From the NCBI RefSeq assembly GCF_006345805.1, contig NC_043013.1:34100001-34164000 (forward strand): a DNA stretch of 64,000 nucleotides, written 5' to 3'. Below the pieces are notes generated by a model. It was not told the DNA's origin and made no database searches. It worked only from the letters and a program-made list of their open reading frames with translations. Shown piece after piece: positions 3,228-61,770 of this stretch. Source of the stretch: Octopus sinensis. Taxonomy: Eukaryota. Each line of letters starts with the position of its first letter. Position 1 is the first letter of the stretch. The translations under genes were made by a program, and so were the position numbers.

Positions 3228-3375
3228 TATATGTCAAGACCTAAAAGTTTCATGCAATTTATCTTAGGACTGACTAACTCATCAGTGGATTGAAAGGAAA
3301 TTTCTTTTCAATATGATGATGAGTACAGCTGGCCATAATGTTGATTGCATGAAACCTTTAGGTTTGGATAAGTAA
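3228..3375. mobile_element. Degenerate hammerhead-bearing palindrome (PLE inverted pLTR-like)
   Basis: Arms meet near 3300. Minus arm has CTGATGA (3279-3285) and GAAAC (3247-3251). Plus arm has aTGATGA (3316-3322) and GAAAC (3351-3355). Confidence 0.65.
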
Positions 3376-4634: not shown

Positions 4635-5150
4635 AAATTTTTTTCAATAAATATAAATCTCCCACTGAGGAAGGTGCTAGTTCCCATCAAAGATACAAGG
4701 CTCTATCTTTGGGATGTAGTTAACACAGACAAATTCACATTTGGAACTTGAGAAAAGTCTTGCATATTTTTACTGTTCCACTTACAGATTGCACTTGTAA
4801 TGTACGAATCAGCCGGTCGGTTTCTCTTTTTGAAAATCTCAGTTTACCCAGATTCTTCTTCAAGCATCTACTAACCAAACCTAGTGCTCCAATTATTATT
4901 CGTATGAATATGAATTCATAGTCTGGATATAGAAGCTGGAGGTTTCGAAGCAGTTGTCCATAGATATCATCTTTTTCATTGATTTTTAAAGAGAGATTTA
5001 TATCTGCAGGGCATATGATGGTATACACCTTTGCTCCTCTGTTCCAAATAACAATATCCGGCCTGTTATGTTTATATTTGACAGAAGTTTTACAGTATTC
5101 CTTGTATTTATGTATGTATGTATAATCTTTTGAAAACTGGTGTTATATGT
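4635..5150 (-). mobile_element. 5'-truncated R4/Dong-clade (RLE-type) LINE: endonuclease C-terminus plus 3' UTR
   Basis: Minus-strand translation KYKHNRPDIVIWNR...CPADINL..KINEKDDIYGQL...IIIGALG...SGTVKICKTFLKFQM* carries the PD motif and IIIGALG of a restriction-like endonuclease. It ends in a (CATA)n tract. Confidence 0.8.
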
Positions 5151-8545: not shown

Positions 8546-8584
<39 letters not shown>

Positions 8585-8589
8585 ATAAA

Positions 8590-8993
8590 TATTAGGGAAT
8601 AAATCCAAATTTACAGGGAAAAAAATCAGATTTAGGATTAAATCCAATTTTATAGTAAAATATTATAAAATATTATTAGAGACAAAACCACTATTTTGCA
8701 AAACAAACAAGGAAAGACTTAATCAATACATAAAATTTAATAATAATAGTCAAAAAAACCGCCACTACAATCGTTTCTTGTCTTGATCGACAATCTTCAG
8801 GTGGACTTCCAATAAGTCAGTTTCAAATTATGAGAAACTGACTTATTGGAAGTCCACCTGAAGATTGTCGATCAAGACAAGAAACGATTGTAGTGGCGGT
8901 TTTTTTGACTATTTATTAAAATTTTATGTATTGATTAAGTCTTTCCTTGTTTGTTTTGCAAAATAGTGGTTTTGTCTCTAATAATATTTTATA
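8590..8993. mobile_element. Near-perfect palindrome with about 160-bp arms (8664-8824 / 8834-8993) plus a left-arm tail; PLE inverted pLTR-like
   Basis: Arms are reverse complements apart from a small AT-patch difference, with a 9-nt spacer. (TA)n flanks both sides. Confidence 0.85.
8854..8896 (+). ncRNA. Minimal type-I hammerhead ribozyme motif (mirror copy on the minus strand at 8762-8804)
   Basis: ccac CTGAAGA ttgtc-gatcaa-gacaa GAAAC gatt GTA gtgg: stem I ccac/gtgg, stem II ttgtc/gacaa, intact core and GUA cleavage triplet. Confidence 0.8.
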
Positions 8994-9660
8994 TATATAT
9001 ATATATATATATACAGCTACTCCTTATATATATATATACATACATACATACATACAAATATACATACATTCATAGGTACATATGTATGTATGCATACATA
9101 TATATTCATATACATATATATAATACTTACATTCGTATATTCATACATACTCATATTTATCTTAACTCTAAATGTATTTAAGCAAAAGTTCCTCTAATAT
9201 TTGGAGACATATGCTTATGGAGAAATCCACATAATAGCCTTAGTAAAGAACTTCATAAACGTAGGATGATGTTTATTAATTTTGGCAGAAAATAATAACA
9301 TCTTGCTCAACACATCCATTACACAATTTTGAATTACGCAGAAATACACATGCACAAACACATAAATACAAGCACACACCTACATTCACACATGCATACA
9401 CACAGCTCTTCGCATAATTAATTAGGATGTCACTTGACAGCAATCACTGCACGAAATATTTCGTTATCTTTTACAAATCTGTAACATATTAATCACTTTA
9501 TATGCTCTAGTACAGCTATTGAGTACGCAATCATCCTTGTTTTATATTGTCCTACAATAATCTTTTATGTGTCTATATGTATGTGACTGTGTCTTATCTG
9601 TATTCTTGTATATATATCAGCACACACATTGTGTATATGTGTGTGTGCGTGTGTTTATAT

Positions 9661-9956
9661 ATTCTGTAAATAATAATAGCAATTATAAGCTTAAAGCTTA
9701 TAAGCAATCACCATATATTGGCTTAAAAAAATAGTCTAATATTGGAACATATAAACTTTCGATAGAAAACAGTGGGTTTTGTGTACGCATGGGAATCGAA
9801 CCCAAAACTCATACATTTGTGTACACAAAACCCATATACAAAACTCACTTTCTTTCTATTAAATGCTTATATACTCAATATTAGACTATTATCTTCAGTC
9901 AATACACAGCAATTGCGAATATGCTTTAAGTTTTTAATTGCTATTATTTAGAGAAT
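9661..9956. mobile_element. Degenerate foldback/MITE-like inverted repeat
   Basis: aataatagcaatta...atagtctaatattg...gggttttgtgtac is mirrored by gtacacaaaaccc...caatattagactat...taattgctattatt. Confidence 0.6.
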
Positions 9957-26367: not shown

Positions 26368-26370
<3 letters not shown>

Positions 26371-26624
26371 TGTTTGTAGAAATACATATATCCAGAGAAG
26401 CACACTCTAAAGTTTAGAGCAGTTAATATTATAATGGGGAGGCTGGTTTATGGGGTTACTCTGGGTTTCTTGCTCATAAGAGGTTTAGCCTTACAGAGTA
26501 TCTTCAGACCCCAAAACACTGCTGGTCTAATTGTTTTGGAGTCTGAAGATACGTTGCAAGGCTAAACCCCTTATGAAGGAGAAACCCAGGGTAACCCCAG
26601 AAACCGGCTTCTCCCATTATAATA
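26368..26624. mobile_element. Hammerhead-bearing palindrome (arms 26427-26518 / 26532-26624) plus a left tail
   Basis: gg(a/g)gt CTGAAGA (26543-26549) ... GAAAC ccagg GTA acccc (26581-26598), mirrored on the minus strand. The arms differ at roughly a dozen positions. Confidence 0.75.
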
Positions 26625-26640
26625 CATACATATACATATA

Positions 26641-27484: not shown

Positions 27485-27515
<31 letters not shown>

Positions 27516-27557
27516 TTATTAATAGTTAGGTAATATAAAATATATATATATATAATA

Positions 27558-28075
27558 TATAAGCGAGAAAGAAGCAACAAGAATGGATAGGTTTTTAGTA
27601 CGATCGTTTCATACAAGGACAGGGTTTATTAAAAGTTGCAAAGATTACAGCATATAAACGAGTCCCGTACTCATCAGCTAAAATACATGTAAGTTCTCTA
27701 GACATCCTAGTGTTTGAGGCTATACTCATGAAGTAATGTAGATAATTAAACAGATTCTAAAGTTTAGAATCTGTTTAATTATCTACATTACTTCATGAGT
27801 ATAGCCTCAAACACTAGGATGTCTAGAGAACTTACATGTATTTTAGCTGATGAGTACGGGACTCGTTTATATGCTGTAATCTTTGCAACTTTTAATAAAA
27901 CCTGTCCTTGTATGAAACGATCGTACTAAAAACCTATCCATTCTTGTTGCTTCTTTCTCGCTTATAATCACCCCACATTACTGTATTGTTAAATCAGTAT
28001 AGTTTTTTTTGGTGCATCTAAGTTAGGTACCATATTCAAGTAAATTTTTTTAAATTAACTTGAATCTTTATTGCT
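27558..28075. mobile_element. Almost perfect 409-bp palindrome (27558-27966, centre 27762) plus a right tail; PLE inverted pLTR-like
   Basis: 204-bp arms around a single central G, with one mismatch noticed (acagggttt vs aaaacctgt). Flanked by TA tracts. Confidence 0.9.
27841..27931 (+). ncRNA. Type-I hammerhead ribozyme motif with extended stem II (mirror copy on the minus strand at about 27593-27683)
   Basis: ttttag CTGATGA gtacgggac...gtccttgtat GAAAC gatc GTA ctaaaa: 6-bp stem I, intact core, palindromic stem III ACGATCGT. Confidence 0.8.
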
Positions 28076-28094
28076 CTTTGTATATATATATATG

Positions 28095-28445
28095 TAGGCA
28101 CAAGAGTGGGTGTGTGGGAAGCTTGCTTCCCAACCAAATGGTTCCAGGTTCAATCCCACTACATGGCACTTTGTGAGTGGATTTGGTAGAGAGAAACTGG
28201 AAGAAGCTTGTCGCGTATACATATATGTATGTATGTATTTGTGTCTCTGTGTATGTCTCCCCATCATTGCTTGACATCGATGTTAGTGTGTTTACATTCT
28301 TGTAACTTAGTGGTTTGACAAGAGACTGATAGAATAAGTACTATGCTTGCAAAGAATAAGTCCTGTGGTCGATTTGTTTGACTAAAGGTGGTGCTCCAGC
28401 ATGGCAGCAGTCAAATGACTGAAACAAGTAAAAGAATAAAAGAAT
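28095..28445 (+). mobile_element. SINE family A with an internal deletion
   Basis: Homology to other copies. Confidence 0.8.
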
Positions 28446-28454
28446 ATATATATA

Positions 28455-28912: not shown

Positions 28913-28978
28913 CACACAATTTTTATATATATATTTATGCATAACAATACTCTAGATACATACCTACTATTTATATAT

Positions 28979-29176
28979 TCTTTTATTCTTTTACTTGTTT
29001 CAGTCATTTGACTGCAGCCATGCTGGAGCACAGCCTTTAGTTGAACAAATTCACCCCAGGACTTATTCTTTGTAAGCCTAGTACTTATTTTATTGGTCTA
29101 TTGGAGATGTAAATACACCAACAGTTATAAAGCGATGGCGGAGACACAAACACAGGCACACTCTCACATAAACATA

Positions 29177-54362: not shown

Positions 54363-55364
54363 ACAAGTGTTTCCATATATATGATCATATATATATACAC
54401 ACACACTTGTTCATATACACACACACACAATGTTTTATTTCATTTTTCAGGTTGATGGTCAGTACATCAAACCAAAGGCGAAGGCTTTCTGTTGAAAAAT
54501 GTTGATGTGAAATTACATTACTTACTTCAATAATACAAGAGAGAATCACATCTCTTAAATAAATGTGTTATAACCAAGAAAATGGCAATTTTTTTCTTTT
54601 TCTTTTTCTTCTTTTTTTTTTTTGCTTTTTAATTTTCATTTTACTCATTTTGATGTGACAAGTGAAAGGACATTTCTGAATCTATCAGCTTTGACACAGC
54701 AGAATAATCACCATCCATCATCATAATTGTCACCAAAATCATCATCATGATAATCATTAATAGAGTCGCAGAGAATACCTTGTGGCATTTTGTTCCAGCT
54801 TTTATGTTCTACATTCAAATCCTGCTGAGGTCAGCTTTGACTTTCATCCCTCAAGGGTAGTTAAAATAAAATGCTGATCAAGTACTCTTCCCTAAAAACT
54901 GCTGGCCTCATGACATAATTAATTATTTATTATAAATATGGAATAAACGCTTAGTGGCATTTCATCCATCTGCCAGTTCTGAGTTCAAATTCTGCTGAGG
55001 TCGACTTTACCTTTCATCCTTTATCCTTTCAGGATGAACCCCAGTGGGCAGCTAGTATTTATTTTATCAACCCTGAAAGGTTGATAATCAAAGTTTGACT
55101 TTGGCTAGATTTGAACTCAGGATGTAAGAATCAGACAAAACGCTGCTAACCTTTTATCAGATGCATTCACAATTCTGCCAGCTCACCTTAACAACTACAA
55201 CAACAACAATAATGAAAATAGCAATCCTTTCTACTATTGACACAAAGCCTGAAATTTGATGGTGGAGATTGGTGATGTAATCGACCAGTCCCCTCTCAAA
55301 TTTCAATCCTTGTGCCACCAGTAGAAAGGATTATTATTATTATTATTATTATCATTATTATTAA

Positions 55365-61571: not shown

Positions 61572-61770
61572 TGGTAAAAACGGTAAGATAACAAAAGAAA
61601 GAAAGAGACCTCAATATTATGTAAATAGAGGAAATTTATCTATAAAATAATATGTTACATTTACTCAATAGTCAAAATAAAACTCAGAGTTTCAGATGCC
61701 GAAGTGGAAATCCACAACACCATCTCTTCGGTTATCTGGCCATCAAAGAGATGGCCAGATAACCGAAGGG
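61568..61770 (-). mobile_element. PLE-like terminal fragment with a variant hammerhead core and a short 19-bp snap-back arm
   Basis: Hairpin cttcggttatctggccatc-aaaga-gatggccagataaccgaag (61726-61768). Minus strand reads agataa CCGAAGA gatg...catct GAAAC tctga GTT ttattt. TA tracts lie on both sides. Confidence 0.6.

What the first reader, a model, noticed from the sequence alone, without database searches (positions are those of the whole stretch)
27558..28075. Youngest case: 409-bp essentially perfect palindrome with intact hammerheads on both strands
The 204-bp arms have a 1-nt spacer and one visible mismatch. The hammerhead ttttag-CTGATGA-gtacgggac…gtccttgtat-GAAAC-gatc-GTA-ctaaaa has a 6-bp stem I, an unusually long stem II insertion and a self-complementary stem III (ACGATCGT), the feature that allows dimeric folding of minimal hammerheads. 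Spacerless palindromes are normally unstable, so this implies a recent event or active arm homogenisation.
Basis: partly seen in the sequence, partly recalled or inferred. Interest (0 to 1): 0.75.

Follow-up and report, generated by a model that had tools for sequence, protein, structure and literature searches.

The report
Back-to-back Penelope ends with hammerheads
This 409-base palindrome is two back-to-back copies of the end of a very abundant repeat, each carrying a complete hammerhead self-cutting RNA motif; it was likely pasted in recently by a Penelope-type jumping gene, a kind known to leave such hairpins, so it is ordinary in kind, though its RNA appears to be heavily edited by the host.

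Summary
In detail: 204-bp arms, a 1-nt centre, one mismatch, and a full type I hammerhead core on each strand. The insertion is larger than the palindrome. The right arm continues into a 114-nt tail (27967-28080) of the same high-copy family, and TA tracts flank both ends. Public contigs show family copies ending into (TA)n at exactly these two points (27966 and about 28080). This matches the published Penelope-like anatomy: head-to-head 5'-truncated pseudo-LTRs with a tail on one arm. The centre base comes from the tail-less copy, with a 2-nt overlap, so simple fold-back of one cDNA cannot make it. Recent insertion fits better than arm homogenisation. The two ribozymes lie on opposite strands, cannot dimerise in cis, and would be locked in a hairpin. 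One probable RNA run shows clustered A>G changes, including core A6 and A9, consistent with ADAR editing. Whether the parent is autonomous, whether cleavage occurs and whether this exact locus is real were not tested. The scan already reported this kind on other pieces of this genome. Verdict: new member of a known kind.

The parts
27485..27557 (.). TA-rich tract left of the insertion (target side), at the 3' end of a SINE-like repeat
   Evidence: sequence; the flank matches many other window repeats
27558..27764 (-). Short (tail-less) 5'-truncated copy, sense on the minus strand. Its 3' end is the family's short end. It also supplies centre base 27762 and the 2-nt overlap 27763-27764
   Evidence: family letters upstream of the arm in X18; short end into (TA)n in 19, 15 and 8 contigs of X1, X4, X8
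27593..27683 (-). Type I hammerhead motif of the left copy; predicted cleavage after 27599; carries the private change at 27624 in distal stem II
   Evidence: descriptor search; the family shows A or G at the matching place 27900
27762..27762 (.). 1-nt centre, templated by the left copy and not an added base
   Evidence: the minus strand across the centre matches the family's upstream letters in X18 for three bases beyond the arm (compared by eye)
27763..27966 (+). Right 5'-truncated copy (pseudo-LTR-like part), sense on the plus strand
   Evidence: the family continues upstream (115 nt in X3, up to 482 nt in the X18 contig)
27841..27931 (+). Type I hammerhead motif: stem I 27841-46/27926-31, core 27847-53, stem II domain 27854-27913, core 27914-17, stem III 27917-24, predicted cleavage after A27925
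27967..28080 (+). 114-nt tail on one arm only, from the family's short end to its long end; two predicted hairpins; no ORF start
   Evidence: covered by family contigs in X1, X4, X8, X3, X13; long end into (TA)n in 40 X1 contigs, 1 X3 and 1 X13; folds and translation
28081..28093 (.). TA tract right of the insertion, followed by a SINE-like head

Best explanation
The locus is two 5'-truncated copies of one high-copy hammerhead-bearing repeat, joined head to head with a tail on one arm only and set in a TA tract, and it was likely inserted recently by a Penelope-like reverse transcriptase/GIY-YIG endonuclease. Shown: the anatomy, the family's two fixed 3' ends, and the origin of the centre base. 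Inferred steps: the enzyme cuts both strands of a TA tract. One target end primes cDNA at the short site (27966-equivalent) and the other at the long site (about 28080). Both cDNAs stop early at nearly the same place. They are joined through a 2-nt overlap at a tiny inverted repeat in the parent, possibly after a short snap-back of the tail-less cDNA. The hammerheads are passengers from the parent's pseudo-LTR, where they would cut as dimers in tandem transcripts. Here they are predicted to be silent, because a read-through RNA zips into a 204-bp hairpin that ADAR would hyper-edit. Whether the parent encodes its own enzyme or is a non-autonomous, retrozyme-like unit is open.
For: (1) The arm and the right 'flank' are one family: 3097, 652, 404 and 1 contigs were laid in four runs, with cover continuing through 27967-28075. 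(2) Two fixed 3' ends run into (TA)n: 27966 in 19, 15 and 8 contigs (plus 27960 in 7), and 28093-behind in 40 X1 contigs, 1 X3, 1 X13; depth drops after 28078 (both loose-end tables were cut, 55 and 27 rows not shown). The locus's two ends are exactly these two sites. (3) Two unrelated palindromes in the window have the same layout: one arm with an extra 60-80 nt, TA tracts on both sides, hammerhead-type cores. (4) Other copies of this family show head-to-head junctions at other places: X1 at 27883 (1 contig, centred on the self-complementary 6-mer 27883-88), X4 at 27923 (2), X13 at 27768 (2) and 27827 (1) (compared by eye). (5) Published anatomy: an inverted 5'-truncated pLTR, mostly head-to-head, a tail at one end, (TA)n bias (PMC3846280 passages; PMC8557442 passages and section 15); paired hammerheads 100-700 bp apart on opposite strands (PMC4209133 parts 1-2). 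A purified Penelope protein cuts and extends both strands and starts at two internal sites that bracket the tail (PMC11167929 parts 1-2). (6) The five commonest family variants I mapped inside the ribozyme fall at unpaired places (27863, 27881, 27922) or give G-U wobbles (27900, 27907); the 27922 allele keeps an 8-pair stem III duplex at -5.8 kcal/mol. (7) Run X13 (RNA is a guess) has 16 changed places, 13 of them A>G. Ten of the 13 are at zero in X1, two at about 1% or less, and one (27900) is a genomic variant. They include core A6 (27850) and A9 (27853). One loose end equals the antisense arm with 8 of 10 A read as G and all 11 other letters matching.
Against: No RT or GIY-YIG coding sequence was linked to the family: no Pfam hit above cut-off in 150 of 208 candidate frames of the window, and no longer homologue of the arm's 53-codon frame. 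The tail is 114 nt against the 30-40 nt in print, and it holds no ORF start, unlike the rotifer Pen2a and anole Poseidon elements. Both arms lack one A at 27768-69 that 5 of 5 displayed family witnesses have, which fits copying of one arm from the other near the centre as well as a source variant. Short inverted junctions in contigs can be library chimeras. The A>G signal comes from one run, compared with DNA of a different organism label, and an earlier unchecked note reports edited Penelope copies fixed in DNA in a related genome. The variant tables are truncated, so core conservation is only partly seen.
Confidence: 0.87

Rival explanations
1. Same element, different route: an antisense RNA self-primes at the tiny inverted repeat and is extended into a hairpin, which is then integrated and trimmed at the short site (the self-priming idea of Arkhipova et al. 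2013). This is a rival for the joining step only and overlaps the best explanation in identity.
For: It also puts the centre G on the plus strand and explains the A missing from both arms. It was proposed for head-to-head palindromes in rotifer Penelope elements (PMC3846280 Discussion passage).
Against: A fold-back at this centre has only 1-2 pairs round a 3-nt loop (DNA fold). Asymmetric junctions in other copies are simpler with two truncated cDNAs. In vitro, both target strands prime at two sense-template sites.
Confidence: 0.25
2. Fold-back chimera of a read, or an assembly artefact.
For: The arms are nearly perfect with a 1-nt centre, and such structures trouble assemblies (PMC8557442 passage). 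No read-level confirmation of this locus was obtained.
Against: The mirror stops exactly at the family's short 3' end and does not extend into the flanks, which differ. One arm has a tail that the other lacks. The arms differ by a substitution. Two more loci, one with diverged arms, show the same layout.
Confidence: 0.05
3. An older insertion kept perfect by arm-to-arm gene conversion, or selected as a hairpin-RNA or ribozyme-switch gene.
For: 99.5% arm identity; one shared single-A loss; signs of double-stranded RNA from the family.
Against: The right arm has 0 substitutions against X3 and X18, so there is no accumulated age to homogenise. The 26.4-kb palindrome has 12 mismatches in 91 columns, so such arms do drift apart. 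Both flanks are repeats.
Confidence: 0.04
4. A MITE or foldback DNA transposon whose terminal inverted repeats happen to hold a hammerhead.
For: Palindromic shape and TA target.
Against: Ends are asymmetric, centres lie at variable places (27762, 27883, 27923 and others), and the family continues upstream of the centre.
Confidence: 0.02

Closest known systems
EN+ Penelope-like element insertions with inverted pseudo-LTR and one-sided tail (PMC3846280, passages; PMC8557442, passages and section 15)
   Same: Head-to-head inverted 5'-truncated copies, a palindromic junction with a small overlap, a tail on one end, an AT/(TA)n target, a hammerhead in the repeat.
   Different: No ORF lies in the insertion; the tail is 114 nt rather than 30-40; no ORF start in the arm or tail; the clade cannot be assigned.
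Penelope-associated type I hammerheads with palindromic helix III (PMC4209133, parts 1-2 of 4; PMC6765202, passages)
   Same: Type I topology, 6-bp helix I, 2-bp helix III with a palindromic 4-nt loop, pairs on opposite strands 100-700 bp apart.
   Different: The helix II domain is 60 nt, far longer than the 4-8 bp described, and has no unpaired base at its 5' start. Rfam models miss it.
Anole Poseidon PAc in vitro system (PMC11167929, parts 1-2 of 4)
   Same: Two fixed 3' ends that bracket a tail; AT-rich target; priming on both strands would give this product.
   Different: In PAc the start sites lie inside the ORF and show no homology to the target; here both ends adjoin TATA-like letters and no ORF is present.
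Metazoan non-LTR retrozymes (PMC7229834, passages; bioRxiv 10.64898/2026.07.22.740005, part 1 of 5)
   Same: Non-coding high-copy repeat with a type I hammerhead, proposed to derive from Penelope elements.
   Different: No head-to-tail tandem at this locus; unit length and circular RNA were not testable.
ADAR hyper-editing of palindromic repeats (PMC5625713, passages)
   Same: Self-folding repeats (frog Harbinger), lizard Penelope and octopus near-perfect dsRNA are described as heavily edited.
   Different: Editing of hammerhead core bases in Penelope-type hairpins was not found in my one search for it (0 papers).

Membership tests
Penelope-like element insertion | Inverted, head-to-head, 5'-truncated terminal copies | tested here: met
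   both hammerheads point outward and the family continues upstream of the centre
Penelope-like element insertion | Tail on one end only, between two fixed 3' ends | tested here: met
   its length is 114 nt, longer than the 30-40 nt in print
Penelope-like element insertion | AT-rich or microsatellite target | tested here: met
   TA tracts on both sides; family ends run into (TA)n
Penelope-like element insertion | Linked ORF with telomerase-like RT and GIY-YIG endonuclease | not testable with these tools
   no genome held; no locus in the public collections scanned; none in 150 of 208 window frames
Penelope-like element insertion | Partial head-to-tail tandem forming a direct pseudo-LTR | tested here: inconclusive
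   absent at this locus; no displayed contig continues past the tail into element sequence, but the tables were cut
Type I hammerhead ribozyme | Core CUGANGA, GAAA and UH in order, with three stems, stem I open | tested here: met
Type I hammerhead ribozyme | Core conserved among paralogues with structure-compatible variation | tested here: inconclusive
   A6 and A9 show no A>G in X1; five mapped variants are unpaired or wobble; tables truncated, no alignment of copies available
Type I hammerhead ribozyme | Self-cleavage (monomer or dimer) | not testable with these tools
   the 2D probability of the active monomer fold is about 1e-4 and the dimer stem III is -10.0 kcal/mol; predictions only
Non-LTR retrozyme | Tandem non-coding units each with a hammerhead, expressed as circular RNA | not testable with these tools
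   a single unit per strand here; only contigs were available
MITE / foldback DNA transposon | Symmetric fixed termini and a fixed internal structure | tested here: not met
   asymmetric ends and variable centres

The most novel reading that the evidence does not exclude
Head-to-head Penelope-type ends are a main source of the near-perfect double-stranded RNA behind the exceptional hyper-editing of octopus-type genomes, and ADAR editing of the hammerhead's catalytic adenosines is a host brake on these elements. Their junctions also record the unsolved joining step: the spacer comes from the tail-less arm, which points to two cDNAs primed on opposite strands from two fixed sites. Thousands of copies would make this directly testable.
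Probability: 0.2. Interest if true: 0.55.

Novelty: new member of a known kind. Interest (0 to 1): 0.27.

Why it matters
As a structure it is ordinary: Penelope-like elements are known to leave hammerhead-bearing head-to-head hairpins, and this scan has met them elsewhere in the same genome. Its value is as a clean specimen for an open question that the literature names, namely how Penelope insertions get their inverted repeats and one-sided tail. Here the centre base can be assigned to the tail-less arm, which excludes single-cDNA fold-back. It also links these hairpins to A-to-I hyper-editing that reaches the ribozyme core, which could matter for how cephalopods control these elements.

Tried and rejected
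No whole genome is held, so copies could not be counted or aligned. The centre (27728-27763) had no cover in 6 of 6 distinct runs laid. Contigs show presence only, so this is no evidence on the locus. No RNA holder was listed as on record; six holders are guessed RNA, I laid two (X13, X18), and I laid no silent control stretch. Pattern scans found 0 matches in metagenome contigs, viral contigs and prokaryote genomes. Rfam gave 0 hits at gathering score for the window; 23 weak hits at E up to 10 are hairpin-shape matches below gathering score, with no hammerhead family. Pfam on 150 of 208 frames gave 4 sub-threshold hits, dismissed. The 53-codon frame through the ribozyme has no longer homologue and is taken as chance. 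A possible intron ending at stem I was looked for: no splice-like joint appeared in X13 or X18, which is inconclusive. A single X1 joint skipping 118 nt has unknown letters between and was set aside. ADAR neighbour bias: 7 of 12 sites have a 5' T (21 of 53 background) and 4 of 12 have a 3' G (7 of 53), but 2 have a 5' G; too few to count (the preference itself is recalled). A 9-nt match between the left flank and the tail was judged chance by rough estimate. No target-site duplication can be defined in TA tracts. Earlier-finding look-ups near this place, by sequence and in relatives returned nothing. Paper searches for ADAR plus Penelope hammerheads gave 0 papers; twin priming plus Penelope gave 1 unrelated listing; octopus plus Penelope plus palindrome gave 2 editing papers. 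No supplements were read; those of PMC4209133 and PMC8557442 may list cephalopod families.

Full report
OBSERVATION. The palindrome is as described: arms 27558-27761 and 27763-27966, centre G27762, one mismatch at 27624/27900. Shuffled windows give perfect arms of at most 8-12 nt (10 shuffles). A type I hammerhead descriptor finds the motif on both strands (cores at +27847 and -27677), and a core with stem I of 5 bp or more arose once in 30 shuffled windows. Stem I has 6 bp, the stem II domain is 60 nt, and stem III is 2 bp round a palindromic 4-nt loop. Rfam does not recognise it. The window is AT-rich, repeat-dense animal DNA.

THE FAMILY. The stretch 27558-28075 is held in part by 20 of 24 listed public runs from 10 studies, best share 0.82. 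I laid 6 of the 20, all as contigs. In four runs 3097, 652, 404 and 1 contigs were laid, and cover continues without a break from the arm through 27967-28075. The 'right flank' is therefore part of the element. Copies leave the sequence into (TA)n at two places: 27966 (19, 15 and 8 contigs; 27960 in 7 more) and the TA run after G28080 (40 contigs in X1, one each in X3 and X13), where depth falls about fourfold (both loose-end tables were cut). These are exactly the two ends of this locus. The left arm stops at the short end, and the right arm carries a 114-nt tail to the long end. The family runs on upstream of the centre (115 nt in X3, up to 482 nt in the X18 contig), so both arms are 5'-truncated and joined head to head.

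SAME LAYOUT NEARBY. Two unrelated palindromes in the window, at about 8581-8998 and 26370-26625, have one arm with an extra 60-80 nt, TA tracts on both sides and hammerhead-type cores. The first passes my descriptor; the second shows the core words by eye only. Their arms are 163 of 163 identical with 5 gap positions, and 79 of 91 identical. Other copies of this family show inverted junctions at other places: 27883 (1 contig), 27923 (2), 27768 (2) and 27827 (1) (compared by eye). These short junctions could include library chimeras.

THE JUNCTION. X18 shows the family's letters upstream of the arm. The minus strand of the window follows them for three bases past the left arm (27762-27764), while the plus strand does not. 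So the centre base is templated by the left, tail-less copy, and 27763-27764 belong to both copies. Fold-back of the tailed cDNA would put the G on the other strand. Fold-back of the tail-less cDNA alone cannot supply the tail. Two priming events, or an antisense template trimmed afterwards, are needed (inferred). Both arms lack one A at 27768-69 that 5 of 5 displayed family witnesses have. That fits a source variant, or a short snap-back before joining.

AGE. The right arm has no substitution against X3 (27775-28093, one gap) or X18 (27768-27937). The left arm's change at the mismatch is not a listed family allele (A or G there). A young insertion explains this without homogenisation. A fold-back artefact would mirror the flanks and would not stop at the family's own end, but no read confirms this exact locus.

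RIBOZYME. Forced into the active fold, the monomer is -9.0 kcal/mol against -14.3 for its best fold, with a 2D probability of about 1e-4. Two stem III segments form an 8-bp duplex of -10.0, so a dimer is the plausible active form, as published for Penelope hammerheads (PMC4209133; PMC6765202 passages). Five mapped family variants are unpaired or give G-U pairs. At this locus each strand has one ribozyme, preceded by its antisense copy, and the whole hairpin folds at -354 kcal/mol. Cutting here is predicted not to occur unless transcription starts inside the palindrome.

EDITING. Run X13 (RNA is a guess; 74 contigs laid) differs at 16 places, 13 of them A>G. In X1 ten of these are at zero, two at about 1% or less, and one is a genomic variant. 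They include core A6 and A9 and four stem I adenosines. One loose end is the antisense arm with 8 of 10 A read as G, followed by nine letters I cannot place cleanly, and other loose ends show T>C runs. This is the pattern of ADAR on double-stranded RNA of both strands. Heavy editing of lizard Penelope, palindromic frog repeats and octopus dsRNA is in print (PMC5625713 passages).

COMPARISON. Inverted 5'-truncated pseudo-LTRs, mostly head-to-head, with a tail at one end and (TA)n targets are standard for endonuclease-bearing Penelope-like elements (PMC3846280 passages; PMC8557442 passages and section 15). Opposite-strand hammerhead pairs 100-700 bp apart are described. A purified Penelope protein cuts and extends both strands from two internal sites bracketing the tail, and its hammerhead is not needed for insertion (PMC11167929). 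Differences here are the 114-nt tail without an ORF start and the long stem II. No coding partner was found, so an autonomous parent and a retrozyme-like parent (PMC7229834 passages; bioRxiv 10.64898/2026.07.22.740005 part 1) both remain possible. Earlier agents reported this kind on other pieces of the genome; none matched this family by sequence.

VERDICT. A real feature and a new member of a known kind. Confidence 0.87 for a Penelope-type head-to-head insertion; interest 0.27.

Noticed in passing
window 8581-8998: Second family, same layout: 9-nt spacer, arms with 0 substitutions in 163 columns and 5 gap positions, hammerhead on both strands passing the descriptor, about 80-nt tail on the left arm, TA tracts on both sides.
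   Followed up: partly
window 26370-26625: Third family, older: 13-nt spacer, 79 of 91 columns identical, hammerhead core words on both arms by eye (failed my strict descriptor), about 60-nt tail on the left arm.
   Followed up: partly
window 3239-3363 and 9716-9904: Decayed palindromes (about 70-73% arm match) with a hammerhead-like core word on the minus strand; probably older events of the same kind.
   Followed up: partly
window 26406-26418 and 27756-27768: The 13-base centre of the main palindrome also occurs exactly in the tail of the 26.4-kb element; unexplained, possibly chance among palindromic words.
   Followed up: no
window 55226-55329 and 61726-61768: Two shorter palindromes beside simple-repeat tracts, with no hammerhead word found.
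   Followed up: no
window 4735-5142 (-): A 135-aa frame that by eye (recalled motif) resembles the C-terminal restriction-like endonuclease of R2/CRE/NeSL-type non-LTR retrotransposons; no Pfam hit.
   Followed up: partly
window 28319-28454 and 28968-29103: Inverted pair of SINE-like ends, 89% complementary and 513 nt apart, just right of the insertion; another possible source of double-stranded RNA.
   Followed up: no
window 27775, laid runs: At least two subfamilies: X1 and X3 contigs carry about 9 extra bases before 27775 that the window and X18 lack; the region upstream of the centre has a short direct repeat in X18.
   Followed up: partly
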